Shown one piece after another: positions 507 through 13,997 of a stretch of DNA of 35,511 nucleotides. The notes under the pieces are model-generated. The model saw only the letters and a program-made list of their open reading frames with translations. It made no database searches and was not told the origin of the DNA. Source of the stretch: Planctomycetota bacterium. Its GTDB lineage: Bacteria; Planctomycetota; Planctomycetia; Pirellulales; Lacipirellulaceae. The stretch covers positions 1-35,511 of the forward strand of contig JBCCXZ010000039.1 of NCBI GenBank assembly GCA_039190745.1. The letters are read 5' to 3'. The stretch's first letter is position 1, and each line of letters starts with the position of its first letter. The position numbers and the translations under genes were made by a program.

Positions 507-1298
507 TCAAGCCTTCTGGCAGTTGTCGCATGCGTAAACGGTGCGGGACGCCAGCTCCCACACCCCGATCGGACCGTCGCACTTGGGGCAGTGCGACTTC
601 TTGTAGACGAGCAGCCGTTCGTCGCGTCGCATGCGGCCGCGCGGTTTTCCCACCTCGTCAGGGTCGGCGATGATGATGCGGTTGTAACGGACTCCGATCG
701 CGAGCAGCTCTTCGAGCTTCTCCCACATTTGTGTGAACAGGCCCTGGGAGATTGCTCTGCCCGGGGTCTCCGGGTGGATGCCGAGCAGGAACAGCACCTC
801 GCTGCGGTAGATGTTGCCGACTCCGGCGATGACGGATTGATTCAGGAGGAGGCTGCCGATCGCCGCCCTGCTCTTGCCGATGCGGGCCCAGGCTTTCTCT
901 GGGTCTGAGTCTTTACGAAGCGGGTCTTCGCCGAGACGCTCTCGCACGGCCGCCCAGGCTTTCTTGGTCAACAGTTCGCAACGGTTGGGCCCGTTGAGAT
1001 CGAAGGAGTGGTCGTCGCCGATCACCCGCAGCCTCACCTGGCCCCTCGGTTCGGGCGGCGGCGACGGGTGGCGATGGAACTTGCCGTACAATCCCAGGTG
1101 GATGTGGAGCAGCGTGCCTCCTGACCAACGGTAGAGCAGGTGCTTGCCGAAGGCGTCGACGGCTTCGAGCGTACGCCCGTCGAGTTTCTTGGCGCCGTCG
1201 ACGAAACGGCCTTGCGGGGAAGAGACACGCAGAGACCGTCCGCAGAAGTCGCGGGAGTGGTCGCGGGCGACCCGGTGGATGGTGTGGCCTTCGGGCAT
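507..1298 (-). CDS. nei: Fpg/Nei family DNA glycosylase/AP lyase (endonuclease VIII-like)
   Basis: N-terminal MPEGHT, GKHL, HLGLYG, H2TH motif LLNQSVIAGVGNIYRSEVLF and C-terminal zinc finger CPKC...CDNCQ. Confidence 0.92.
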   Translation of the reverse strand: MPEGHTIHRVARDHSRDFCGRSLRVSSPQGRFVDGAKKLDGRTLEAVDAFGKHLLYRWSGGTLLHIHLGLYGKFHRHPSPPPEPRGQVRLRVIGDDHSFDLNGPNRCELLTKKAWAAVRERLGEDPLRKDSDPEKAWARIGKSRAAIGSLLLNQSVIAGVGNIYRSEVLFLLGIHPETPGRAISQGLFTQMWEKLEELLAIGVRYNRIIIADPDEVGKPRGRMRRDERLLVYKKSHCPKCDGPIGVWELASRTVYACDNCQKA

Positions 1299-1423: not shown

Positions 1424-1870
1424 CTAGAGCTGGTAGACCTCTTCTTCGCGCGGGAAGCCGCAGCGTCCGACTTCGGAAGTCTTTTGCGCCACGAGCTCGG
1501 CGATGGTCTTGGATTCCAGCAACTCGTACATCCGGGCCAAGGTTCGGTCGATCTCAGAGTGCAGCGGGCAGAGCTTGTTGTGCCCCGGGACGCCGAGGGG
1601 GCAAGACTCGATGCGTTTCAGCGAATCGACCGCGCCGACAATGTCGAGCATCGTGAGTTCGACGGGGGACCGCGTTAACGAGATACCGCCCCCGGTGCCT
1701 TGTTGCGTGGAGATCAACTCGGCGTCCCGCAGCTTGTTGAGCACCTTCCGCAGGTACGGCGCGTTGATCTTCGTGGCCAAAGCAATGACGGGGATAGTGC
1801 TCATGTGGCTGGGGCATGAAGCCAGGAAAGCAGTCGCCCGCAATGCGTATTCAGCGGTTTGAGAAAACAG
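1424..1870 (-). CDS. Rrf2 family transcriptional regulator (probable CTG start)
   Basis: Frame extends past the ORF-track TTG (1843) to give (M)FSQTAEYALRA. Winged HTH YLRKVLNKL...QGTGGG and CPLG-x3-H-x3-CPLH. GGAG lies 7 nt before the CTG at 1870. Confidence 0.9.
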   Translation of the reverse strand: MFSQTAEYALRATAFLASCPSHMSTIPVIALATKINAPYLRKVLNKLRDAELISTQQGTGGGISLTRSPVELTMLDIVGAVDSLKRIESCPLGVPGHNKLCPLHSEIDRTLARMYELLESKTIAELVAQKTSEVGRCGFPREEEVYQL

Positions 1871-2108: not shown

Positions 2109-3287
2109 ATGGCGGTTGTGCCTTTTTCCGCTCAACGTCTTCCGCTCGCATTTCTCTTGGTTTGCTTAGCAGCGGTCGGCTGCCGCCCCGCTGTCCCGCC
2201 GAGTTTCTCGGCCGGTGAGGCGGTGGTGAACCTGACCGCTGATATCGAAGATCCGGAGGAGCTGGAGCTCTACACCGAACTCCAGGTCGAGATCGGCCGC
2301 GAGCTGCGTAGATGGTGCGGCACGCCCGAGAAGATCAAGCTGCTCGGCGAGGAGCACGACCTTGAAGCGGAGGCGCGGCTCAAGCTCGGGTACCAGGTCT
2401 ACGACCGGTACTGCACCCAGTGCCACGGCGTGAACGGCGACGGCAACGGCCCGGCCGCAGGCTCGTTGAACCCGAAGCCCCGCAACTACACCAAGGGCGT
2501 CTACAAGTTCACCTCGACCCCCTACGGCAGCAAGCCGCGTCACTCGGACCTGGTGCTGACCATCAAGCGGGGGGTGACGGGCACCTCGATGCCGTCGTTC
2601 GACCGCTTCTCCAAGGAAGAACTCGAGGCGGTGACCGACTACGTCTTGGCCCTCACGCACCGGGGCGAGTTGGAGCAAGAGCTCGCGAACATCGCCTACG
2701 ACGAGGGGGAGCTGCTGCCCGAAGAAGACATGCAAGACGTCGTCGACACGATTCTGGAGCCTTGGCGCGAGGCGGCCGACCAGCTTGTGATGCCGGCAAC
2801 GCCGATGCCGCCCATGACCGAGGCTACCGTCCGCGCCGGACACGAGGCGTTTCTCGGAAAGGCTTGCAACCGGTGCCACGGGAAGTTTGGGCGAGGGGGC
2901 TCGATGGGCGGCGTCGAGGTCGGGTTGGACGCCTGGGGGAACAAGGCCGCGGCCGCCGACCTCTCGTCGGGCATGTTCCACGGGGGCGACCGGCCGATCG
3001 ACATCTACCGACGCATCTACTCTGGCATCAACGGGACACCCATGCCGGCGTTCGAGACTGTGTTTCGCGACGACCCGGACGCGATCTGGCACATGGTCCA
3101 CTTTATCAAGGCGACCGGCGACCGACGCAGGCAAGGCCTGGCGCCGCTGGGCGAGTCCGACCTGCCGCCCCAATCGGCCGCGTCGGAGAGCGAGGCCGCC
3201 CAGCCCCCAGCGGACGACGCCGAGCCGGCTGAGGTTGAAGGGGAAGAGTCGGAAGAACCAGAGACTAGCGACCCGGCAGCCGCCTAG
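2109..3287 (+). CDS. Di-heme c-type cytochrome, predicted lipoprotein
   Basis: CTQCH and CNRCH with distal Met motifs TSMPSF and TPMPAF. From ATG 2109 the signal ends in lipobox-like LAAVGC. Acidic low-complexity C-terminal tail. Start choice is inferred. Confidence 0.88.
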   Translation: MAVVPFSAQRLPLAFLLVCLAAVGCRPAVPPSFSAGEAVVNLTADIEDPEELELYTELQVEIGRELRRWCGTPEKIKLLGEEHDLEAEARLKLGYQVYDRYCTQCHGVNGDGNGPAAGSLNPKPRNYTKGVYKFTSTPYGSKPRHSDLVLTIKRGVTGTSMPSFDRFSKEELEAVTDYVLALTHRGELEQELANIAYDEGELLPEEDMQDVVDTILEPWREAADQLVMPATPMPPMTEATVRAGHEAFLGKACNRCHGKFGRGGSMGGVEVGLDAWGNKAAAADLSSGMFHGGDRPIDIYRRIYSGINGTPMPAFETVFRDDPDAIWHMVHFIKATGDRRRQGLAPLGESDLPPQSAASESEAAQPPADDAEPAEVEGEESEEPETSDPAAA

Positions 3288-3309
3288 GTTCCAACGGTTT
3301 AGGGGTGTT

Positions 3310-3942
3310 ATGGAAAACGACGCCAGACAGACCGAACTCGACGAGCTGCGTCAGCGCGTTGCTGTGCTGGAGTCCCAGATCGCGGCGGAAACCGAGCACA
3401 CGCCGTTCCGACCGAAGGACTACTACCTGGCCTACTACGCCAACTCCGGGTTCATGCTTGGCAGCATCGGTGCGATGGCCAGCCTGCTGTTCAACGTGGT
3501 CGGTTCGGTGCTCACGGGCCGGGCCCCGCTGGAGATCATCCGCACGTACCTGACCTTCCCGCTGGGCGACCGGGCCTTCGAGCTCCCGCCCGAGCAGAAC
3601 GGGCTGATGCTTGCCATTGGTTGCTGCCTGTACATCGGCACCGGCATGGTGCTGGGCGTTCCGGTGTACTTGGCGCTCGCTAAGTGGGCCTCGCAGAAGG
3701 CGTTGCCGGCGCGATTGGTTGTGGCGACGTTCGTGTCGCTCCTGATCTGGGTTATCAACTTTTACGGGCTGCTCTCCTGGTTGCAGCCCGCCGTCATCGA
3801 CATGTCCCCCGAGAACTTGATCCTGGAGAGGATCCCTCCCTGGGTTGCCGCGGCAACGCACTTGGTTTTCGGCTGGACGATCGCCTTGGTTTACCCGCTC
3901 GGTGAGTACGAGCCCTACCGGCGAGTCACGGATACGCAATGA
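3310..3942 (+). CDS. Hypothetical integral membrane protein (about 4 TM, N-terminal coiled coil)
   Basis: MENDARQTELDELRQRVAVLESQI followed by hydrophobic helices. Stop overlaps the ccoN start (ATGA). Confidence 0.8.
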   Translation: MENDARQTELDELRQRVAVLESQIAAETEHTPFRPKDYYLAYYANSGFMLGSIGAMASLLFNVVGSVLTGRAPLEIIRTYLTFPLGDRAFELPPEQNGLMLAIGCCLYIGTGMVLGVPVYLALAKWASQKALPARLVVATFVSLLIWVINFYGLLSWLQPAVIDMSPENLILERIPPWVAAATHLVFGWTIALVYPLGEYEPYRRVTDTQ

Positions 3943-5372
3943 ACGACCCAACGGATAATGCCACGCAACCCGCCTCTGACCAGCCGCAAGGCCCCGAGGG
4001 GGTCGAGTCGCTGCAGGACTACCTCGTCGAGGAGCGGCTCGTCTGCTGGTATTTTGTGGCCGCGCTGGGCTACTTGTTCATCTCGATGCTGGGCGGCTTT
4101 CTGATGGCTTTCCAGCTGGTGCAGTGGAACCCGTTTCAAGACTACGAGTACCTCTCACCCGGCCGCTGGCGGATGGTGCACACCAACGCGATCGCGTACG
4201 GCTTCTTGGCGAACAGCTTCCTGGGCGCCCTGCATTGGGCCGTCCCTCGGCTGACCCTGAAGCCAGTCCTCAATAAAGCATTGAGCTATTTTATTTTTGC
4301 CGCTTGGCAGGTTGTGGTGCTCGCGACCGCCGTGGGCCTCATCCTTGGGCAGGCCCAGGGCGTGGAGTGGGGCGAGACGCCGGTGTGGATCGATCCGCTC
4401 GCTCTCGCCGGCCTCGCGCTGGTTGCGGTCAACTTTATGGCGCCCATCATCCAGACCAAGGGGCCGCTTTACGTCACCCTTTGGTATTTCATGGCCGCGT
4501 TCGTGTGGACCTTCCTCACCTACGCGATGGGCAACTTCGTCCCCGAGTACTTCGTCTCCGGCACCAGCGCCGGGGCGATCGCGGGCCTGTTCATCCACGA
4601 CTTGGTCGGCTTGTTCGTCACGCCGCTGGCGTGGGGGCTGATGTACTACTTCGTGCCGATCCTGCTGAAGAAGCCGATTTGGAGTCACGGCCTGTCGTTG
4701 GTCGGTTTTTGGGGGCTGGCGTTCTTCTACCCGCTCAACGGCATTCACCACTTCCTGTACACGCCGATCCCCGACTTCTTGGAGTACGGGGCCATCGTCG
4801 CCACGGTGGCGGTGGAATTCGTGGTGACGACCGTGATCATCAACTTCTTTGGCACTCTGTGGGGGACCGGGCGTGCGGTGGTCACGAACCTGCCCATCCG
4901 CTGGTTCTACACCGGAATGGTGTTGTACTTCGTGACCTGTGCCCAATGTGCGATGCAGGTGACCCGCACGTTCCAGAAGCTGATCCACTTCACCGACTGG
5001 GTCGTGGGGCACGCCCACCTCGTGATGTTCGGAGTGTTCAGCATGTGGTTCTTCGGCATGATGACCTACCTGTTCCCGCGTCTGCTAAAGCAGTCGTGGT
5101 ACAGCCGGTCGCTGTGCGAGTGGCACTACTGGCTTTCGACCGTCGGGATCGGGGTGATGTTCATCGACCTCGTGCTGGCGGGTGTCTTCGAGGGCTACTT
5201 CTGGGCGTCGCTCCAGCCGTGGGAGGCCTCGACCGACGGCGCCCACGCGTTCTGGGTGACCCGCGTCTTCGCGGGGCTGGCGATCTTCGCCGGGCAGCTC
5301 GCTTTCATTTACAACCTGTTCATGACCTGGGTGCTCTCCAAGCGGGGCGCCAACCAACGGGCGGCGGCGTAG
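3939..5372 (+). CDS. ccoN: C-family (cbb3-type) heme-copper oxidase subunit I, divergent
   Basis: About 12 TM helices. GRWRMVHTN (H81), EWGE, IHDLVG (H220), MYYF, FYPLNGIHH (Y264, H270, H271) and WVVGHAH (H358, H360). Confidence 0.92.
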   Translation: MNDPTDNATQPASDQPQGPEGVESLQDYLVEERLVCWYFVAALGYLFISMLGGFLMAFQLVQWNPFQDYEYLSPGRWRMVHTNAIAYGFLANSFLGALHWAVPRLTLKPVLNKALSYFIFAAWQVVVLATAVGLILGQAQGVEWGETPVWIDPLALAGLALVAVNFMAPIIQTKGPLYVTLWYFMAAFVWTFLTYAMGNFVPEYFVSGTSAGAIAGLFIHDLVGLFVTPLAWGLMYYFVPILLKKPIWSHGLSLVGFWGLAFFYPLNGIHHFLYTPIPDFLEYGAIVATVAVEFVVTTVIINFFGTLWGTGRAVVTNLPIRWFYTGMVLYFVTCAQCAMQVTRTFQKLIHFTDWVVGHAHLVMFGVFSMWFFGMMTYLFPRLLKQSWYSRSLCEWHYWLSTVGIGVMFIDLVLAGVFEGYFWASLQPWEASTDGAHAFWVTRVFAGLAIFAGQLAFIYNLFMTWVLSKRGANQRAAA

Positions 5373-5406
5373 ACGCCCCGCGCAGCAATCCTGTTTGGCA
5401 GCATCT

Positions 5407-6069
5407 ATGTTTGAGAGTAAATCCGGCATCCTGTTGATCGGCGGCTTAGGGTTCTTCCTCTTCGCGTTCCTCTCGAACGCGTTGGTGCCGATCTTGCTGT
5501 ACCAAGACCTCCCGGAGAAGACGGTCGAAGAGCTCGCTACGAACCAGAACCTGATCTACCAGTTCGAAGACCTGAAGATGCGGTTCCCCGAGCAGTTCGA
5601 GAAGTACTTCGGCGAGCCGAATCAGGTGAACCTCGTGGAGGCGCTCGAGCTGGGCCGCGACATCTACACCGGCGAGGGCTGCTGGCACTGCCACAGCCAG
5701 TTTGTGCGGCCGGTCTCCAACGAGAGCGCCCGTTGGGGCAAGGTCTCTTCGTCCGACGAGTACCAGAACGAGCTGCAGCGGCCCGTCTTGTGGGGCACCC
5801 GCCGCGTGGGGCCCGATCTCAGCCGCGAGGGCGGTCGCCGGGGCAGCGACTGGCACGCCGTGCACTTCCACAACCCGCGGACGCTCTCGCCGGGTTCGCC
5901 CATGCCCAAGTACCCCTGGTTCTTCGACGACAACGACCCCGACAAGCCCAACAAGCGCGGCCTCGCGATCATCACGTACATCCAGTGGCTCGGGTCGTGG
6001 CTCGAAGAGTACCCGCTGTACGAAGACTACGTGCCGCTGGACGACCAGGTGCGCAACCCGCTGGAATAA
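5407..6069 (+). CDS. ccoO: cbb3-type oxidase subunit II (mono-heme c)
   Basis: N-terminal TM, GRDIYTGEGCWHCHSQFVRP, WGTRRVGPDL, PGSPMPKY. Confidence 0.92.
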   Translation: MFESKSGILLIGGLGFFLFAFLSNALVPILLYQDLPEKTVEELATNQNLIYQFEDLKMRFPEQFEKYFGEPNQVNLVEALELGRDIYTGEGCWHCHSQFVRPVSNESARWGKVSSSDEYQNELQRPVLWGTRRVGPDLSREGGRRGSDWHAVHFHNPRTLSPGSPMPKYPWFFDDNDPDKPNKRGLAIITYIQWLGSWLEEYPLYEDYVPLDDQVRNPLE

Positions 6070-6105
6070 GAACGCCCTAGAAGGTTCCCCCCCAGGAGAC
6101 ACCTC

Positions 6106-6423
6106 ATGCTGAAAGACATCGCGGTAGGCGTCATGGCCGTGGTTGTGATCGGCTTCTGCGCCTTCGGCTTCGGCAGCAAGTTTGTCGAGTTCGTCTACCT
6201 GGTGCGTTCTGACGACCCCTTGGCCCGGGACGGCATCTTCGCGGTCGCCCCGCTGTCGAACTACCTGCTGGCGAGCGCGGGCTTTTTGTGTTTGCTAGGT
6301 TGGGCCACCATCCACGGGATGTTCCACAACATCGAACGCCCCAAGCACACCATGCTCGTCGACGATGAGCGGCTCGACGCCGCCGACTCCAGCACGCCGT
6401 TCAGCAACTCTGTGATCCAGTAA
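6106..6423 (+). CDS. Small membrane protein with CcoS/FixS-like C-terminal half
   Basis: Two TM segments. WATIHGMFHNIERPKHTMLVDD resembles the CcoS pattern WA-x3-GQFDDxExPxxRILxDD. GGAG SD upstream. Confidence 0.65.
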   Translation: MLKDIAVGVMAVVVIGFCAFGFGSKFVEFVYLVRSDDPLARDGIFAVAPLSNYLLASAGFLCLLGWATIHGMFHNIERPKHTMLVDDERLDAADSSTPFSNSVIQ

Positions 6424-6486
6424 CCGCGGCCTGCCGTTCCGATAGCAGACCCTTCGCGAGAACCCGCCGCACCCGAAAGGCGCCAC

Positions 6487-6693
6487 GTGAGCGACTACCT
6501 AGACACCGCCGCCGAGGATGTGCCGGTCGACCACAGCCCGGCCAAGATCGAGCACCGCTGGCATAGCTACGTCGGCAACAGCATCCCGTGGTACGTGCGG
6601 CTGATATGGCTGGGTTTCTGGGCATACGCAATCTACTACACCATCGTGTACCTGTTCCCGGCGCTCCAGGCCGAGATCGTTTCGCCGCCGTGA
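6487..6693 (+). CDS. Small single-TM protein resembling the CcoP N-terminal (FixP_N) segment
   Basis: EHRWHSYVGNSIPWYVRLIWLGFWAYAIYY compared with CcoP GHxWDGIxEYxNPLPxWW...Y. No CxxCH. Stop overlaps the ATPase start (GTGA). Confidence 0.65.
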   Translation: MSDYLDTAAEDVPVDHSPAKIEHRWHSYVGNSIPWYVRLIWLGFWAYAIYYTIVYLFPALQAEIVSPP

Positions 6694-8930
6694 CCCCAAC
6701 CGCCGACGCCGAAGGCCGCCGCGAACGGTACTGCTCGCTCTGCGGGCTTCCGATCGCACGCACGTTCACGTTCACCGGCGACACCGGTCAGGATGCGTCC
6801 GACGAGGAAGCGGCCTACTGCTGCTCCGGCTGCCGCACCGTGGCCGACGTCGAGTCGGCCGGCGCAGAGACCGGCTCGTCCGCCCGCGGCATGATCCGCA
6901 TCGGCCTCGGCGTATTCTTCACCATGAATGTCATGGTCTTCTCGATGGCGCTCTGGAGCGAGAATCTTTACGCGGCGGGCGATTTCGAGACGCCGCTCGC
7001 TGAGACGCTCCGCGGGCTCTTCCGCTGGGGCAGCCTGCTGTTCGCGGCGCCGGTGCTGCTGCTGCTGGGCGGGCCCATCGCCGTCGGCGTCTGGCAGGCG
7101 CTCCGGCGGGGCGAGATCACCACCGACCTGCTCATCCTGTTTGGTGTGGCGGCCTCTTACGCCTACTCCGTGGCCTCGGTGCTCCGCGGGTCCGGCGACG
7201 TCTACTGCGAGGTCGGCTCGATGGTGCTGCTGTTCGTCTCCATCGGCCGGTGGATGGAGGCGAAGGGCAAAGTCCGGGCCAGCCAATCGCTCGACGCGCT
7301 GGCGTCGCTCTTGCCGGAGACCGTCCGCATCCGCAACACCCAAGGCAACTACGAAGAACGCCCCCGGGGCGAAGCGAAGGCCGGCGACGCGGTCCGTGTC
7401 CTCCCGGGCGAACGGCTGCCGGTCGACGGCACGGTGCTCTCGGGCGAGGCGCAGGTCGATCAGCAGGTCGTCACGGGCGAGTCACGCCTGGTCGAGAAGC
7501 AGCCGGGCGACGCCGTCTACAGCGGCACGCTCAACACTGACGGCGACCTTCGCGTGAGGGTGACCGCCGGCGACGGGCAGGAAACGGTGTCGCGGATGCT
7601 GGCGATGGTCTGCGAAGCGCGGCTCGCCAAAGGCCGCCACCAGCAGATCGCCGACCGCGTCGCGGCGTGGTTTGTCCCGGTGGTGTGCGTGGTCGCGCTG
7701 CTCGCCGGCTGGCGGCAATCGGCTGGCGGCGAGTGGCAGGACGGCATCCTCACGGCGCTTTCGGTCGTGGTGATCGCGTGCCCCTGTGCGTTGGGGCTCG
7801 CCACGCCTCTGACGATCTGGACCGCGCTCGGCCGCGCAGCCCCCGCCGGGGTGCTGTTCCGCAGCGGGGCCGTCATCGAGAAGCTGGCCGCAGTGCGGAC
7901 CGCGTGTTTCGACAAGACCGGCACGCTGACGACCGGCCTGCCGACCGTGAGCCGCGTGCATGTTTTTGGTGAAGATCGCTCCGAGGAAGTGTTTGCAGCG
8001 GCCGCGGTTCTGTCCGCAGGTTCCACGCACCCGGTGTCGCGCGCAGTGGCTGAGTTGGTCGGAGCGACCGGTTCCGCAGCCGCCTCTGAGTTTGGGGAAT
8101 CGCCGGTGAAGACGATCGCCGGGCGGGGGCTGGAAGCGGACATCGAGGGCCTCGGCCGCGCACTTCTGGGCAGCCGCAAGCTCATCGAGGAGCGGGGGCT
8201 CGAACCGCCGGCAATCGCCGCAGCGCACGAGGACTCTGCCAACCGATTGCATTGGCTCGCCCTCGACGGACAAGTCCTCGCCGCGTTCGAGACCAGCGAA
8301 TCGCTGCGTCCCGAGGCGGCCGCCGCGCTCGACCGGTGCCGAGAACTGGGGCTCCAACTCCAGATGCTTAGCGGCGACGAGTCGGCCAGCGTACAAGCGG
8401 TGGCGGAGCAGGTCGACCTGCGGTCGGCCGGAGACCAACTGCCCGAAGACAAACTCGAGGCCGTCCGCCGGCTCGCCGGCAGCGGAGCCGTAGCGATGGT
8501 CGGCGACGGCCTGAACGACGCCCCGGCATTGGCCGCAGCAGACGTCGGCGTGGCGCTGGGCTGTGGGGCCGACCTTTCCCGCGACGCGGCGGGCGTGTGC
8601 CTGCTCTCGGATGACCTGGCCCGCTTCCCTTGGGCCGTGGAGCTCGCCCGCCGCACGGTGCGCACGGTCAAACAGAACCTGTTCTGGGCGTTCGCTTACA
8701 ACTGCATCGGAGTCGGGCTCGCGGCCAGCGGCCGGCTCAATCCCGTTTGGGCCGCGGCGGCAATGGTTGTGAGCAGCCTGCTGGTGGTCGGCAACTCGTT
8801 GCGGCTGTCGACTTTCCCCGATTGCCATTCGTCAGCAGACCAGGCGGATGGGAAGGCTGTGCCCGGGATGGAATGGAACAGCGACAAACCGAGCCCGTCG
8901 GCCGCCCCGCTCGCGGAGGCCACGGCGTGA
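6690..8930 (+). CDS. ccoI: Heavy-metal (Cu) P1B-type ATPase, CcoI/FixI-like
   Basis: TGES, CPC, DKTGT, HP, GDGLNDAP, YN and MxxSS motifs. N-terminal CSLC...CCSGC. GTG 6690 is coupled to the upstream stop. Confidence 0.88.
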   Translation: MTPTADAEGRRERYCSLCGLPIARTFTFTGDTGQDASDEEAAYCCSGCRTVADVESAGAETGSSARGMIRIGLGVFFTMNVMVFSMALWSENLYAAGDFETPLAETLRGLFRWGSLLFAAPVLLLLGGPIAVGVWQALRRGEITTDLLILFGVAASYAYSVASVLRGSGDVYCEVGSMVLLFVSIGRWMEAKGKVRASQSLDALASLLPETVRIRNTQGNYEERPRGEAKAGDAVRVLPGERLPVDGTVLSGEAQVDQQVVTGESRLVEKQPGDAVYSGTLNTDGDLRVRVTAGDGQETVSRMLAMVCEARLAKGRHQQIADRVAAWFVPVVCVVALLAGWRQSAGGEWQDGILTALSVVVIACPCALGLATPLTIWTALGRAAPAGVLFRSGAVIEKLAAVRTACFDKTGTLTTGLPTVSRVHVFGEDRSEEVFAAAAVLSAGSTHPVSRAVAELVGATGSAAASEFGESPVKTIAGRGLEADIEGLGRALLGSRKLIEERGLEPPAIAAAHEDSANRLHWLALDGQVLAAFETSESLRPEAAAALDRCRELGLQLQMLSGDESASVQAVAEQVDLRSAGDQLPEDKLEAVRRLAGSGAVAMVGDGLNDAPALAAADVGVALGCGADLSRDAAGVCLLSDDLARFPWAVELARRTVRTVKQNLFWAFAYNCIGVGLAASGRLNPVWAAAAMVVSSLLVVGNSLRLSTFPDCHSSADQADGKAVPGMEWNSDKPSPSAAPLAEATA

Positions 8931-9652
8931 TCGAGATCCCGCTGATCTTCGTCGGAGGGCTCCTCGGCTCGGCGCACTGCATCGGCATGTGCGGCCCGCT
9001 GGCGGTGGCGCTGAGCGCCTCGGCCCCGTCCGGCGCCGGGCTGTTTGGTCGTCAGCTCTTCTTCAGTTTCGGCCGTGTGTTTACGTACGCTTGCTGCGGC
9101 GCGGCCGCGGGGTTCGGCGGAGCCTGGGCCGCTTCGCCGACGCAGGCTTACGCGGTGCCGCAGGCGTGGCTGGCGATCGCCGCCGGCACGGCGCTGATCC
9201 TGATGGGCCTGGTCACCGCGGGCGTCTTGCCGAAGCCGGCCCTCCGCGCGCTCGGCGAATCGCCCTGCACCGCCGCCGCGTGGCTGAAGACCTTCCTCGC
9301 CGCTCCCGGCTGGTTCGGGCCGTTTCTGGCCGGCATCTTCACCGGCTTCATCCCCTGCGGGCTGGTCTACGCGTTCCTGCTCAAGGCCGGCAGTTCAGGC
9401 GGGGTGTGGCAGGGTTGGCTGACGATGGTCGCCTTCGGGCTCGGCACGCTGCCGGTGATGCTGCTGGTCGGCTACGGCGGCTCGTTCCTGTCGGCGGGCC
9501 GACGGGCCCGCATCTTCCGGGTCGCCGCTTGGTGCATCGTCGCCACCGGCCTGATCTCCGTCGCCCGCGGCGCCTATCAGCTGGAACCGATCGCTGCGGG
9601 TTCGCAGCCGGCCTGCCCGCTCTGCGAAGAGGCGGAAGACTCCGGCAAGTAA
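8927..9652 (+). CDS. DsbD_2 / TauE-SafE family membrane protein (cbb3 assembly associated)
   Basis: HCIGMCGP, GRVFTY, GFIPCGLVY, MVAFGLGTLP. GTGA overlap with the ATPase. Confidence 0.88.
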   Translation: MIEIPLIFVGGLLGSAHCIGMCGPLAVALSASAPSGAGLFGRQLFFSFGRVFTYACCGAAAGFGGAWAASPTQAYAVPQAWLAIAAGTALILMGLVTAGVLPKPALRALGESPCTAAAWLKTFLAAPGWFGPFLAGIFTGFIPCGLVYAFLLKAGSSGGVWQGWLTMVAFGLGTLPVMLLVGYGGSFLSAGRRARIFRVAAWCIVATGLISVARGAYQLEPIAAGSQPACPLCEEAEDSGK

Positions 9653-9668: not shown

Positions 9669-10073
9669 TCAAAGCGGAGGCTCTTGCACCGTGAGCACCG
9701 CGGCCGCGATCCCGACGCCCAGCACGTTGAGGATCGCGATCAGCAGGCCGACGCCGTAGAGGGTTTGCACGCCGGTATCCGGCTTGGCTTTGGCCGCTGC
9801 GCCGGAACGCTTCCGTCGCCAACTCGCGATCACGCCGCACACCCAACTCCAGTGGAGCATCACGTGCAGCAGGATCCCGGCCGCAAACAAGCAAAGCGTT
9901 GCGAACTGCAAGCTGCTCCACCACTCCAGGTCGCGGCCCCAGAGGGTCCAGCCGAGCGACTGCGACGCGGGAGGGAACACGAAGCGGATAATAAGCGACA
10001 CCCAACTCATACCAAGAAACACGACTAACAGCAGCGTGTCGAGCCAGAAGTTGATGGTCGTGCGAGAGGGCAT
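9669..10073 (-). CDS. DUF4405-like small membrane protein
   Basis: INFWLD...W...LLHVMLHWSW with 3 TM segments. Start taken at ATG 10073. Confidence 0.7.
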   Translation of the reverse strand: MPSRTTINFWLDTLLLVVFLGMSWVSLIIRFVFPPASQSLGWTLWGRDLEWWSSLQFATLCLFAAGILLHVMLHWSWVCGVIASWRRKRSGAAAKAKPDTGVQTLYGVGLLIAILNVLGVGIAAAVLTVQEPPL

Positions 10074-10219
10074 GTTCGTTAGGGAGTCAACGGCCGGAGG
10101 AGAAATCGGGGATGTCAGCTGGGCTTTTTGCACTGCAGTGGCAGGAAAGGAAAGCCAACTTGCAACTGCCCGGGGCTCACCCGCTTACCGCACCCGTTGG
10201 GCCAGTTAAAAGTTCCATT

Positions 10220-12007
10220 CTACACATCCGGCCCACGATTTCTGCGGCCTACGACGATCGCGGCGACGGCCACGCAAACAATCCCGATCGCAATCAGGCT
10301 TCCCGCATTGAAGGGTCCGCGTGCGTCTCCCCAAACGATCGCGTAGCCAAGTGCCCCGGCAAACACAGCGTAGTACAGGAAAACAAGCATCGTCTTGCGG
10401 ATGACCAGGCCCTCGCGACCGACGAGGCCGACGACCGCCGATGCGGCTACAACGTTGTGGACGCAGATCGTGTTACCGGCGGCCCCGCCCACCGCCTGCA
10501 GGGCGACGATCCAAGTCGGGTCGGCCCCGATCTCTTCCCCTACGCCGTACTGGAATAGTGAGAACATCATGTTGCTTACCGTGTTGCTTCCCGCGACCGC
10601 GGCGCCGACCCCGCCGATGAGCGGCGACACCAGCGGCCAGGCGTCGCCCACGAGTTTGGAGACGCCCTTGGCCAGCGCGATCGGCATCTCTGGGTAGCCC
10701 TCCCCGCCGTCGCCGCTGTTCAGGAACACCTGCACCATCGGCACGGTAAACACCAACGCTACCGACGCCGCAGCCACGGTTCGGATCGAGCGGCTCACCG
10801 CCCGAGCCGCACGGGCCGTTGGAACGCGGTGCATGGCTACGACGATCAACGAGACGAGCACAAAAACGGAGCCGGGCAAATACAGCGGTTGGATCGAATC
10901 ACCGATGTTCGTCCCCAAGATGTCGCGGACAGGGACCTGAATCCCGAGCAACCATCCCTTGAGCGGAAGGTCGGGCAGCCGGGTGAGCACCAGCAGGGCG
11001 GCGACTAGCAGGTAAGGAGACCAAGCCAACCAGAGCGACATCTCGTCACCCTGCTCCGCGGCGGGTTCTTCGCCGACCGAACCGCCCGCGTTCCAGTCGT
11101 CTTGCCAGCCTTCTCTCGGGCCGAAATCCCAGGGCGCCCGCTCTTCCGGCAAGAACCAGCCTTTCTTCGCGGCGGGAGCAACAAGGGCGAGCCCGATGAG
11201 TGCGCCCAAGATCGACGGGAACTCGGGCCCCAGGAACACAGCGACCAACAGGTAGGGAGCGGTCATTGCCACAGCGGCGAACAGTGCAAACCTCCAAATG
11301 GCCAACCCATCCCGGAAGCTGCGGCTCGGCCCGTAGAACTTGGTCAGTAATGAGACCAGCGCTAACGGCACGAGCGTGCCGACGACCGCGTGCAGCAATG
11401 CGACCTTGACTCCGATTGTGTGTTGGAGCGCCGTCGCGCTGGAGAACCCTTCCGCTGCGGCGAAGTCTGCCAGCGTGCCCGCCCCTTTGAGGCCGTCGGT
11501 GACCCCGACCAGGATCGGCGTGCCGCAGGCCCCGAACGAGACCGGGGTGCATTGGATGATCATGCCCGCCGTGACAGCGGCCATAGCGGGGAACCCTAGG
11601 CCGACCATCAAAGGGACCGCGATCGCCGCCGGCGTGCCGAACCCCGCGGAGCCTTCGATGAACGCTCCGAACAGCCACGCGATGATGATTGCCTGCACCC
11701 TCCTGTCGGGCGTGATGTCCCGGAAGCTGCGTTTGATTCTCCTCAGGGCGCCGGACTCGTCGAGCGTGTTCAGCAGCAGGACCGCGCCCAGGATGATGAA
11801 CAGTAACTTGCCCGTGATGATCAGGCCTTTGATGCTCGCTGCAGCTACCCGTACCGCTGGTACGTCCCAAACGAACAAAGCTAACGCCGCAACCACGAGG
11901 TAACAGACGGGCATCGCCCGGCTGGCGGGCCACTTCAGCAGCACTAGCAGCACCCCGACTGAAGCGATTGGGAGTAGCGACAACAGTGCGAGCACTTCGA
12001 CACTCAT
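10220..12007 (-). CDS. lctP: L-lactate permease (LctP family)
   Basis: [58 protein letters not shown]. Polytopic membrane protein. Confidence 0.9.
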
Positions 12008-12201
12008 CAACGCGGTCCTCGATGATTACGACCAGATCACTGGAAGGACGAGGCAGTTGGAAAACTAGCGGTGCGGCTAGCCGTTCCTGGGGTCGTCCGC
12101 TCTGAGGCGATCTATGAGACAAATTAACAGCAAAGTCTGACGCCCGCCGTGGTCGACCGCAACACGTGGCGGCGTTTCCCGTTGGCAGCCTAGCGAGGGC
12201 C

Positions 12202-12272: not shown

Positions 12273-12743
12273 ATGCCTCTGCAAGCCGAGCTGAAAAAAC
12301 AAAGGCCGTTCGAGAGCCCCGAGCAGGAAGCGGCGCTGAACGTGCTCCGCACCAGCGATTGGATCGAGAACCGCATCGGCAGGCTGCTCCGTGATTTCGG
12401 CCTGACCAATTCGCAGTACAACGTTCTGCGGATCCTCCGGGGAGCTGGCGGGCCGTTGCCGTCCCTGGAAGTGGCGGACCGGATGATTCGGGTAGTCCCT
12501 GCAATTACAGGATTGATTGACCGACTTGAAAAGCAGGGCCTGGTTTCGAGGCGGCGTTGTTCCGAGGACAGACGCGTTGTCTACATCGAGATCGCCCGCG
12601 AGGGGAAGAAACTCCTGGCGAAGATCGACAAGCCGCTCGCGGAGCTCCACATTGGGCTGTTGGGCCACCTCTCGAAGTCCGACCAGAGGCAACTGAGCAA
12701 CCTGCTGGAGAGGGCGCGGCAATCGAAGCTCTACTCCGAGTGA
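12273..12743 (+). CDS. MarR family transcriptional regulator
   Basis: LTNSQYNVLRIL...ITGLIDRLEKQGLVSRRRCSEDRRVVYIEI. Confidence 0.92.
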   Translation: MPLQAELKKQRPFESPEQEAALNVLRTSDWIENRIGRLLRDFGLTNSQYNVLRILRGAGGPLPSLEVADRMIRVVPAITGLIDRLEKQGLVSRRRCSEDRRVVYIEIAREGKKLLAKIDKPLAELHIGLLGHLSKSDQRQLSNLLERARQSKLYSE

Positions 12744-12778
12744 ACCGGATGCCGTAGCCGAGCGTACACCTAAAATAG

Positions 12779-12790
12779 TTGACATGTAAA
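12779..12790. promoter_or_regulatory. Second MarR operator candidate upstream of pirin
   Basis: TTGACATGTAAA, matching the site at 12217-12228 (shared TTkAyATrTAAA). Confidence 0.6.
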
Positions 12791-12818
12791 TAAAAAGCTG
12801 CCCCAAGGAACCACTCGC

Positions 12819-13517
12819 ATGATCACCACACGGAAAGCTGCAGACCGCGGCCACGCCGACCACGGCTGGCTCAACACCTACCACACCTTCTCGTTCGGCG
12901 GCTACCGCGACCCGGCGCACCAGCAGTTCCGGGCCCTGCGGGTGATGAACGAAGACCGTGTCCAGCCGGGGCAAGGCTTCGGCGAGCACCCGCACAACGA
13001 TATGGAAATCATTACGTACGTCCTCGAAGGCCAACTCGAGCACCGAGACTCGATGGGTAACGGCGAGGTGCTCCACGCCGGCGAACTGCAGCGGATGACC
13101 GCCGGCACGGGCATAACGCACAGCGAGTTCAACCCTTCGGGCGAAGAACCGGTCCACTTCTACCAAATCTGGCTTTTCCCCGAGCGTAGGGGTTTGGAGC
13201 CCAGCTACGAGCAGAAGCGGTTCGCCGCCGACGGGCGGGAGAATCAGTTCCGGCTGGTCGCGTCGCCGGTAGGGGAAGACGGCTCTCTGCGGATCCGCCA
13301 GGATGCGAAGATCTCTCTTGCTACACTCGACGCGGGCACTGAGGTGCGTTACCCGATCCCGGAGGGCCGCCACGCTTGGCTGCAAGTGATTCGGGGAGAA
13401 GTGGACTTGAACGGCGTCGCTCTGCAAACCAGCGACGGTGCGGCGGTCAGCGACGAGTCGCTCCTTAGTGTTGCCGCCCGTGGAGACGCAGAGGTGATGC
13501 TGTTTGACTTGGAATGA
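12819..13517 (+). CDS. Pirin family protein (YhhW-like bicupin)
   Basis: RGHADHGWLNTYHTFSF, GFGEHPHNDMEIITYV, HRDSMGN, MTAGTGITHSE, QIW. Confidence 0.93.
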   Translation: MITTRKAADRGHADHGWLNTYHTFSFGGYRDPAHQQFRALRVMNEDRVQPGQGFGEHPHNDMEIITYVLEGQLEHRDSMGNGEVLHAGELQRMTAGTGITHSEFNPSGEEPVHFYQIWLFPERRGLEPSYEQKRFAADGRENQFRLVASPVGEDGSLRIRQDAKISLATLDAGTEVRYPIPEGRHAWLQVIRGEVDLNGVALQTSDGAAVSDESLLSVAARGDAEVMLFDLE

Positions 13518-13568
13518 TCTTGGGAACTTACGAACCCAGTAGCTATCAAATCCTATAAGGAAATTGGA

Positions 13569-13997
13569 ATGAACGTTTCTTGGCAAGGCGCGGCGAGTCT
13601 CGCGGCTCGGTTGATGATCGCCGGGATCTTCGTGATGAGCGCCGTGGGGAACAAGATCCCCAATTTCAGCGGGGTTGCGGAGGTGATGGCCGGTGAGGGC
13701 GTGCCGGCGCCGAAGGTCGCGCTCGCAGGTGCGATCGCTTTTTTGGTGGTCGGCGGGCTGTCGCTCGCGGCCGGCTATCGGGCCCGTATCGGGGCGGGCC
13801 TCTTGCTGGTCTTCCTCGCGTTGGCGACTTACTACTTTCATGATTTCTGGAACTTCGACGGCCCCGAGAAGCAGGGGGAGATGATCCAGTTCCTGAAGAA
13901 CGTTTCGCTGATGGGCGGCCTGTTGTTCATCGTCGCGAACGGGGCGGGCGGGATGAGCCTCGACGCCCGCAGCGCGGCGGTCGACACGGACGGCTGA
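13569..13997 (+). CDS. DoxX family membrane protein
   Basis: ARLMIAGIF...FHDFW...FLKNVSLMGGLL...GAGGMSLD. Confidence 0.9.
   Translation: MNVSWQGAASLAARLMIAGIFVMSAVGNKIPNFSGVAEVMAGEGVPAPKVALAGAIAFLVVGGLSLAAGYRARIGAGLLLVFLALATYYFHDFWNFDGPEKQGEMIQFLKNVSLMGGLLFIVANGAGGMSLDARSAAVDTDG

What the first reader, a model, noticed from the sequence alone, without database searches (positions are those of the whole stretch)
2109..9652. Non-canonical cbb3-like respiratory operon with a rebuilt subunit set
Seen: eight co-oriented genes, three junctions with overlapping stop/start codons. Order is di-heme lipoprotein, unknown membrane protein, ccoN, ccoO, CcoS-like, CcoP-N-like peptide, Cu ATPase, DsbD_2/TauE protein. 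No full-length ccoP, ccoQ, ccoG or recognisable ccoH. Known: canonical loci are ccoNOQP plus ccoGHIS. Inference: a distinct C-family oxidase architecture in which structural and assembly parts are repartitioned and possibly controlled by the adjacent Rrf2. This is the best candidate for an undercharacterised system here; I cannot tell whether it has already been described.
Basis: partly seen in the sequence, partly recalled or inferred. Interest (0 to 1): 0.82.

Follow-up and report, generated by a model that had tools for sequence, protein, structure and literature searches.

The report
Planctomycete oxidase with extra membrane subunit
This conserved eight-gene operon likely encodes a divergent, never-purified relative of the cbb3 oxygen-reducing enzyme in planctomycete bacteria, and one of its unnamed membrane proteins is predicted to be a new subunit, which makes this widespread but unstudied enzyme type testable in cultured strains.

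Summary
Observation confirmed. All eight genes keep this order in 51 of 54 fully flanked relatives, and the genome (95% complete) has no ccoP, ccoG or ccoH. CcoN keeps six metal-binding histidines and the cross-link tyrosine (80/80), so it likely reduces O2. It has Gln for the canonical Glu323, and the tree rejects grouping with canonical cbb3 (AU p=6e-7).

The broad design is not new. CcoNO, a separate CcoP-like helix, CcoS, DsbD_2 and CcoI also occur in the alternative Sinorhizobium pSymA operon, in a lineage that papers call distal or 'unknown group' (membership inferred). An earlier scan note saw a split-off CcoP anchor on other DNA.

New here:
1. A Planctomycetota clade with its own active-site residues (Asp221, Glu293, Cys337).
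2. A Pfam-less four-helix protein, found beside this ccoN in 17 of 17 genomes that have it, predicted to dock on CcoN/CcoO (score 0.71, best control 0.02).
3. A ninth gene, DUF4405, present in 10/10 genomes of the subclade that lacks ccoG and in 0/27 sister genomes, 24 of which have ccoG.

Rrf2 linkage is local (5/54). No biochemistry or expression data.

The parts
2109..3287 (+). Di-heme c-type cytochrome with lipobox (Cys25); likely electron donor to CcoO, the role of the CcoP heme domains
   Evidence: Two CxxCH, each followed by a conserved Met. Lipobox regex in 51 of 73 near-clade homologues and 1 of 20 sister-clade ones. Same family is fused to CcoO in the S. meliloti alternative operon (181 bits). 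A 33% identical paralogue sits just upstream of coxII of the genome's aa3 operon.
3310..3942 (+). Pfam-less membrane protein ('mem'): N-terminal long helix plus about four hydrophobic helices, conserved His184 and Tyr108; predicted subunit or assembly factor
   Evidence: No Pfam or NCBIfam family. In 17 of 301 Planctomycetota genomes, all 17 within 1.5 kb of this ccoN type. Predicted to bind CcoN+CcoO+mini-P: 0.71 against best control 0.02. Weak lead to DUF6789/DUF1440/DUF2938. Stop overlaps the ccoN start.
3939..5372 (+). Catalytic subunit CcoN of a non-canonical C-family heme-copper oxidase
   Evidence: COX1 216 bits; TIGR00780 188 bits against cut-off 583. H81, H220, H270, H271, H358, H360 and Y264 invariant in 80 of 80; Q336, G256, G216, D221, E293, C337 also 80 of 80.
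5407..6069 (+). Mono-heme CcoO
   Evidence: FixO 126 bits; CWHCH and M166 invariant in 48 of 48.
6106..6423 (+). CcoS-like protein with an extra N-terminal membrane helix
   Evidence: FixS E 0.002 in the window; 5 of 7 clade relatives hit FixS at E<0.1, one over the cut-off; two hydrophobic segments.
6487..6693 (+). 68-aa single-helix peptide ('mini-P'), likely the stand-alone membrane anchor of CcoP
   Evidence: Y28, P34, W41, F44, Y51 invariant in 48 of 48. An iterated profile reaches a canonical CcoP N-terminus only at E 0.3-1.1 among 20,368 ORFs. The same-position peptide in Phyllobacterium hits FixP_N at E 0.002. No acidic residue is conserved before the invariant Tyr.
6690..8930 (+). CcoI-type Cu-translocating P1B ATPase
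   Evidence: TIGR01511 477 bits against cut-off 397; CPC, DKTGT, YN and MxxSS conserved; the only such ATPase found in the genome with this query.
8927..9652 (+). DsbD_2/TauE-type membrane protein, likely thiol or copper handling for assembly
   Evidence: DsbD_2 149 bits; conserved HCxxMCG and PCG; also beside canonical and alternative cbb3 operons.
9669..10133 (-). DUF4405 three-helix protein with invariant HxxxH; candidate heme-b replacement for CcoG. Probable start is the ATG at 10073.
   Evidence: Pfam DUF4405 over cut-off; in 39 of 54 full loci, sometimes co-oriented inside the operon; two His invariant in 47 of 47; in 10 of 10 near-clade genomes within 6 kb of ccoN and 0 of 27 sister genomes.
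1424..1870 (-). Divergent Rrf2 regulator (probable CTG start at 1870); local, not a core part
   Evidence: Rrf2 80 bits; under the NsrR and IscR cut-offs; adjacent in 5 of 54 and 6 of 65 loci.

Best explanation
The operon likely encodes a self-contained, copper-containing O2 reductase of the non-canonical (Gln323) branch of the C family, predicted to consist of CcoN, CcoO, a stand-alone CcoP-like helix and a newly recruited four-helix membrane subunit, together with its own assembly kit. Inferred electron path: quinol to the genome's Rieske/cytochrome b/multiheme complex, to the lipid-anchored di-heme cytochrome, to the CcoO heme, to heme b, to the heme b3-CuB site with a His220-Tyr264 cross-link, giving water. 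Inferred proton path: one K-type channel (T228, Y236, S253, Y264, N302, Y330 kept). Its canonical His243 is Gly and the mini-P lacks the CcoP entry glutamate, so the entrance is probably rebuilt where mem and mini-P are predicted to pack on CcoN 246-258. Inferred assembly: CcoI exports Cu, CcoS and DsbD_2 assist insertion, and the DUF4405 protein may supply the reductant that CcoG supplies elsewhere. Likely role: the low-O2 partner of the genome's aa3 oxidase. Shown: gene content, synteny, residues, tree. Predicted: mem docking. Inferred: all activities.
For: Six His and the cross-link Tyr in 80 of 80; Val, not Glu, at the NOR FeB position; PMC11214002 (passages) uses the Tyr as the marker of O2 reduction. 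Cu-ATPase and CcoS in the operon imply CuB. IQ-TREE: clade 100/99, inside a 30-row group with the S. meliloti alternative enzyme (98/93), apart from canonical cbb3 (100/100) and NOR; AU p=5.7e-7. Only two COX1-family genes in the genome and no bd oxidase found. In 34 of 37 genomes with this type, it was the only match to the CcoN query. Complex model 0.71 against best control 0.02, runs agreeing in at least 87% of contacts, partner pLDDT at least 78; this mark was reached by 116 of 157 solved and 2 of 215 mismatched pairs, counts that hold only roughly for a four-chain job with my own alignments. ccoG and DUF4405 are complementary across genomes; one DUF4405 protein binds heme b (bioRxiv 10.1101/2024.03.13.584918, passages).
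Against: No activity or expression data. mem is missing from 20 of 27 sister genomes, so it is not essential to the wider clade. Distant mem homologues occur without any oxidase: 6 of 8 His-type loci of 5 kb or more, and one is fused to a histidine kinase. The ccoG/DUF4405 pattern is one evolutionary event, only five candidates per genome were scored, and this DUF4405 has two His where the published one has four. Mini-P homology to CcoP is weak. Glu293 lies one column from the helix Glu of NorB. High O2 affinity is borrowed from canonical enzymes that have Glu323.
Confidence: 0.68

Rival explanations
1. Same O2 reductase, but mem is a transient assembly factor (for example a heme b chaperone using His184 with Tyr108 or His) or a docking sensor, not a stoichiometric subunit.
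For: Position 108 is Tyr in 90 and His in 4 of 97 rows, and His184 is kept in all 91 rows that cover it. Distant homologues have two His, occur without oxidases and form the N-terminal domain of a hybrid histidine kinase. Absent from 20 of 27 sister genomes.
Against: The predicted interface involves three chains at once, CcoN, CcoO and mini-P, as for an assembled complex; its stop overlaps the ccoN start. A model cannot separate stable from transient binding.
Confidence: 0.17
2. The enzyme is mainly an NO reductase or NO-tolerant detoxifying oxidase that evolved inside the C family.
For: Clade-specific intramembrane Asp221 next to a CuB ligand and Glu293 one column from the NorB helix Glu; Glu323 and Trp203 lost; an Rrf2 gene is adjacent here; C-family enzymes can reduce NO in vitro (PMC11214002, passages).
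Against: Cross-link Tyr kept in 80 of 80 and no Glu at His220+3/+4; Cu-ATPase in 54 of 54 full loci; far from NorB and qNOR in the tree; no nirK found in the genome (nirS not searched); Rrf2 under the NsrR cut-off and rarely linked.
Confidence: 0.09
3. An ordinary cbb3 oxidase whose missing genes are unassembled or too divergent to detect.
For: The genome is 95.5% complete, in 125 contigs; databases label the protein cbb3 subunit I.
Against: AU test rejects it; TIGR00780 188 against 583 bits; ccoG found in 0 of 10 near-clade genomes, several 99-100% complete.
Confidence: 0.03

Closest known systems
Canonical cbb3 oxidase CcoNOQP + CcoGHIS (P. stutzeri 3MK7/5DJQ, R. capsulatus 6XKW)
   Same: CcoN fold family, six His, cross-link Tyr, Ca-site glutamates E143/E146, most K-channel residues, CcoO, CcoI, CcoS-like and DsbD_2 genes.
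   Different: 27-28% identity to rhizobial CcoN; E323Q, H243G, W203G, N208D, G324C and a Glu at 280 (P. stutzeri numbering); no CcoP, CcoG or CcoH; di-heme domain is a separate lipoprotein; extra mem and DUF4405 genes. The known small subunits CcoM and CcoH sit at helices VIII, IX and XI (PMC4742706, PMC7876108, passages), not at the predicted mem site.
Alternative cbb3-like operon of Sinorhizobium meliloti pSymA / Phyllobacterium, and the fused enzyme of Nitrospina gracilis (PMC3578206)
   Same: Nearest named relatives: 35% identity, same starred branch, Gly203, Gln323, Gly243; operon with CcoS-like and CcoP-N-like peptides, DsbD_2 and CcoI.
   Different: There the di-heme domain is fused to CcoO and the site has His202/Tyr208; here Asp208, Glu280 and Cys324, a separate lipoprotein, mem and DUF4405. 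The Nitrospina sequence was not in my tree.
'Distal' cbb3 subtree (Ducluzeau et al. 2008) and 'unknown group' (Muntyan et al. 2015)
   Same: Second-hand descriptions: differ from proximal cbb3 in subunit composition (PMC8788666, PMC7029218); authentic cbb3 have a mandatory active-site Glu and an 'unknown group' lies beside them (PMC5492636). That this Glu is E323 is recalled.
   Different: Neither primary paper could be read, and none of their reference sequences was in my tree, so membership is inferred. They may already list planctomycete members.
cNOR / qNOR nitric oxide reductases
   Same: Superfamily, cytochrome c partner, Ca-site; a Glu in the helix after the CuB loop at a neighbouring column.
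   Different: NORs have the FeB Glu and lack the cross-link Tyr; here the reverse.

Membership tests
C-family heme-copper O2 reductase | Six His ligands and the C-family cross-link Tyr | tested here: met
   80 of 80, mapped on 3mk7_A; the cross-link itself is not shown
C-family heme-copper O2 reductase | Cytochrome c second subunit, no CuA | tested here: met
   FixO domain with one CxxCH
C-family heme-copper O2 reductase | Single K-type proton channel (residue list recalled) | tested here: inconclusive
   T215, Y223, S240, Y251, N289, Y317 equivalents kept in 80 of 80; H243 is Gly in 80 of 80
C-family heme-copper O2 reductase | O2 reduction, Cu content, proton pumping | not testable with these tools
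   Needs purified enzyme
Canonical cbb3 (CcoNOQP) | TIGR00780/00781 cut-offs and monophyly with FixN/CcoN | tested here: not met
   188 against 583 and 111 against 201 bits; AU p=5.7e-7
Canonical cbb3 (CcoNOQP) | Active-site Glu323 | tested here: not met
   Gln in 80 of 80; Glu in all canonical rows
Canonical cbb3 (CcoNOQP) | Full-length CcoP, with CcoG and CcoH | tested here: not met
   Not found in the 95.5% complete genome; ccoG in 0 of 10 near-clade genomes
Distal cbb3 / 'unknown group' | Placement in the subtree defined by Ducluzeau 2008 or Muntyan 2015 | tested here: inconclusive
   Groups with other Gln323 enzymes, but the defining papers were not held and their references were not in the tree; Gln323 enzymes do not form one clade in my tree
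Nitrospina/Sinorhizobium type (PMC3578206) | Gly203 | tested here: met
   G216 in 80 of 80
Nitrospina/Sinorhizobium type (PMC3578206) | His202 and Tyr208 | tested here: not met
   Ala/Gly/Thr-type residue and Asp instead
cNOR/qNOR | FeB glutamate after the first His, and no cross-link Tyr | tested here: not met
   V223/G224 and Y264 in 80 of 80
CcoP N-terminal anchor (FixP_N), for the 68-aa peptide | Profile match to PF14715 | tested here: inconclusive
   No hit for the window peptide; E 0.004 in 1 of 16 relatives; weak reciprocal hits
DUF4405 heme-b cytochromes | Pfam match | tested here: met
   32.8 against 26.7 bits
DUF4405 heme-b cytochromes | Four central His in one six-helix chain, as in the protein shown to bind heme | tested here: not met
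   Three helices and two invariant His; a dimer was not tested

The most novel reading that the evidence does not exclude
A distinct C-family oxidase subfamily with a subunit never seen in any heme-copper oxidase: a four-helix protein recruited from a DUF6789-like family packs on the proton-entry face of CcoN and, with a stand-alone CcoP helix, rebuilds the K-channel entrance, while a heme-b DUF4405 protein has replaced the iron-sulfur cupric reductase CcoG, and Asp221, Glu293 and Cys337 give an active site with different O2/NO chemistry or ion coupling.
Probability: 0.3. Interest if true: 0.82.

Novelty: new variant of a known kind. Interest (0 to 1): 0.6.

Why it matters
All five solved relatives found are canonical cbb3 enzymes. 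Yet this one non-canonical clade occurs in 37 of 301 sampled Planctomycetota genomes and is annotated simply as cbb3, so its O2 affinity and coupling are assumed, not measured. It lacks three elements central to the canonical mechanism: Glu323, His243 and full CcoP (their roles recalled). The operon is self-contained and present in cultured strains (Bythopirellula polymerisocia, B. goksoeyrii, Lacipirellula limnantheis), so it offers a direct test of how a C-family enzyme works without them. It also gives concrete functions to test for two uncharacterised membrane proteins: a new oxidase subunit and a possible CcoG substitute.

Tried and rejected
Fold searches for mem: no Foldseek match at E<=0.001, best VIA Z 6.8 on a pLDDT 69 model; uninformative. 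Fold search for DUF4405: best Z 7.4, generic helical hairpins. ESM Atlas: only Planctomycetota clusters above 0.9; DUF6789/DUF2938/DUF1440 at 0.79-0.81, a lead only.

mem as the CcoG replacement: rejected, since all 7 sister genomes with mem also have a CcoG-like gene. Shared FNR or Crp box upstream: not enriched, 4 of 66 and 11 of 66 against shuffled means of 7 and 10 (consensus patterns recalled). Recent horizontal transfer: no GC anomaly, operon 66.1% against genome 64.9%. Na+ pumping: the Leu-Met pair at 234-235 resembles a motif I recall from Muntyan 2015, but the paper was not held and Glu323 is absent, so it was left open.

Expression: no RNA holder was listed, which is no evidence either way.

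Trees: the FastTree run included a long-branch degenerate paralogue (L152); it and 47 other rows were left out of the 52-row IQ-TREE set.

Literature: ten full-text searches listed no paper describing this planctomycete operon. Ducluzeau 2008 and 2014 and Muntyan 2015 were not held, supplements were not read, and most subscription papers are outside the library. PMC6431628, PMC4013037, PMC5829832 and PMC10732223 (passages) did not describe it. PMC8267372 (passages) gave only the canonical roles of CcoG, H, I and S. Scan look-ups by sequence and by relatives returned nothing.


Full report
OBSERVATION. The eight ORFs, their order and the three stop/start overlaps are as described. Pfam and NCBIfam give di-heme cytochrome c, no family, COX1, FixO, weak FixS, no family, Cu P1B ATPase and DsbD_2. 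CcoN and CcoO fall far below the canonical cut-offs (188 against 583 and 111 against 201 bits). The genome (3.9 Mb, 95.5% complete) holds two COX1-family genes, this one and an aa3 type. Searches found no ccoP, ccoG, FixP_N, FixH, FixG_C, bd oxidase or nirK, and two Sco genes.

CONSERVATION. 78 titles name Planctomycetota groups, one names Deltaproteobacteria and one is unclassified; the closest is a Lacipirellulaceae MAG. Of 54 loci with full flanks, 51 have all eight genes in this order; one each lacks the cytochrome, mem or DsbD_2. DUF4405 is present in 39 and Rrf2 in 5. In 301 Planctomycetota genomes, 37 have a CcoN at 47% identity or more: 10 near (69-100%, including this genome) and 27 sister (47-59%) (counted from its table). 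All 20 sister loci fetched keep di-heme, ccoN and ccoO; 16 show CcoS-like, 19 mini-P, 17 the ATPase and 16 DsbD_2, and later profiles or ORF listings added the remaining mini-P and some CcoS-like genes. The other 7 sister genomes were assigned by identity only.

CATALYTIC SUBUNIT. Numbering is mapped from the alignment to 3mk7_A. All six His, the cross-link Tyr (Y264), R78, E143, E146, D152 and the channel residues T228, Y236, S253, N302 and Y330 are kept in 79-80 of 80 relatives. The NOR iron-ligand Glu is absent. E323Q and H243G are shared by nearly all non-canonical rows. W203G is shared with the S. meliloti pSymA alternative enzyme, a change noted for Nitrospina and Sinorhizobium in PMC3578206 (passages). 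Cys at 324 is confined to the near and sister clades, Glu at 280 to these minus their three deepest rows, and Asp at 208 to these plus a few neighbours. An IQ-TREE analysis of 52 rows puts near and sister in one clade (100/99), inside a branch with the pSymA type (98/93), with canonical Glu323 enzymes in a separate clade (100/100). Forcing this clade with canonical cbb3 is rejected (p=5.7e-7). Gln323 enzymes as a whole are not one clade there, and the deep nodes are unstarred.

HOW MUCH OF THE ARCHITECTURE IS NEW. The pSymA and Phyllobacterium operons read ccoN, ccoO fused to a di-heme domain of the same family as the window's lipoprotein, a CcoS-like peptide, a CcoP-N-like peptide, two more small peptides, DsbD_2 and CcoI. 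The mini-P recurs after ccoO across the non-canonical rows, and in Ralstonia a similar helix heads a mono-heme cytochrome. Its homology to the CcoP anchor is plausible but statistically weak. Papers recognise a distal subtree with different subunit composition (PMC8788666, PMC7029218; passages) and an 'unknown group' beside the Glu-bearing cbb3 (PMC5492636; passages). I could not read the defining papers.

WHAT IS NEW, 1: mem (3310-3942). It has no family and is a small group: 294 clusters at E<=0.001 among 1.84 billion representatives. It was found in 17 of 301 genomes (10 of 10 near, 7 of 27 sister, 0 of 264 others), each within 1.5 kb of this ccoN. Folded with CcoN, CcoO and mini-P it scored 0.68, 0.71 and 0.75 against controls of 0.02, 0.00 and 0.00; contacts agreed in at least 87% and partner pLDDT was at least 78. 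The mark was reached by 116 of 157 solved and 2 of 215 mismatched pairs, counts that hold only roughly here. No like complex is known for mem, so a pass from memory is less likely than for the core. The model sets mem residues 41-52 on CcoN 250-258, the stretch carrying S253 and G256, and mem 95-109 on the CcoO helix, with mini-P 27-33 and 53-65 also in contact. Distant two-His homologues sit in unrelated contexts (6 of 8 long loci without cco genes), whereas Tyr108-type members are beside this oxidase in 20 of 20 long loci. This suggests recruitment from a wider DUF6789-like family.

WHAT IS NEW, 2: ccoG and DUF4405. A CcoG-like gene lies in 14 of 20 sister loci and 0 of 80 near loci. Genome-wide it is in 24 of 27 sister and 0 of 10 near genomes (five candidates scored per genome). 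The DUF4405 gene shows the reverse: 10 of 10 near genomes, within 6 kb of ccoN, and 0 of 27 sister; 11 other genomes have weaker, unlinked matches. CcoG is a cupric reductase (PMC8267372, passages) and one DUF4405 protein binds heme b (bioRxiv 10.1101/2024.03.13.584918, passages). A functional swap is a reasonable guess, but it rests on one evolutionary event and this protein has two His, not four.

WHAT IS NEW, 3: donor logic. The di-heme lipoprotein has a 33% identical paralogue directly before coxII in the genome's aa3 cluster, which follows Rieske, cytochrome b and a multiheme cytochrome gene. Each oxidase appears to have its own di-heme adaptor (inference).

REGULATION. Rrf2 is adjacent only in close relatives, and no FNR or Crp box is enriched. 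Other loci have PAS kinases, Crp-family or CBS genes nearby. Control is likely lineage-specific.

VERDICT. A real, conserved operon and a new variant of a known but uncharacterised kind. O2 reduction is likely (about 0.88 across the first two readings). A stable new subunit is predicted, not shown. Interest 0.6.

Noticed in passing
L152:6953-8347 (G098:C128): Long-branch CcoN paralogue with a ccoO that lacks both His257/His258 CuB ligands but keeps the Tyr and heme ligands; the genome also has an intact sister-clade operon.
   Followed up: no
P0269 (cluster members labelled Burkholderiales and Terriglobales): A mem-like domain (E 3e-47) forms the N-terminal membrane domain of a 1124-aa GAF-HisKA-receiver-Hpt hybrid kinase; His184 is Asn there.
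   Followed up: partly
L084 (G000:C38:14000-33999): Cluster of Rieske, split cytochrome b, a 1533-aa multiheme cytochrome with a PDZ domain, two carboxypeptidase-regulatory-like proteins, a di-heme cytochrome and aa3 genes; likely a bc-aa3 supercomplex locus.
   Followed up: partly
L141-L148: Other Planctomycetota Gln323 oxidases have CcoO fused to a di-heme domain (about 680-770 aa), and several follow 7-8-heme cytochromes of 1250-1500 aa.
   Followed up: no
L139, L140: Single-chain CcoN fusions with three heme-c motifs, 926-953 aa.
   Followed up: no
L132-L134: Deepest members of the clade have a tetra-heme donor, His instead of Glu at position 280, no ATPase or DsbD_2 in the fetched locus, and no ccoG found in the genome.
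   Followed up: partly
window 1424-1870 (-): Rrf2 probably starts at a CTG codon at 1870 behind a GGAG; it keeps two to three Cys shared with close relatives.
   Followed up: partly
L036: The only non-planctomycete title among 80 loci (Deltaproteobacteria MAG) has a rearranged operon and nests in the near clade; transfer or mis-binning.
   Followed up: no
window 507-1298, 10220-12010, 12273-13997: Flanking Fpg/Nei glycosylase, lactate permease and a MarR-pirin-DoxX cluster; they did not appear among the conserved neighbours.
   Followed up: no
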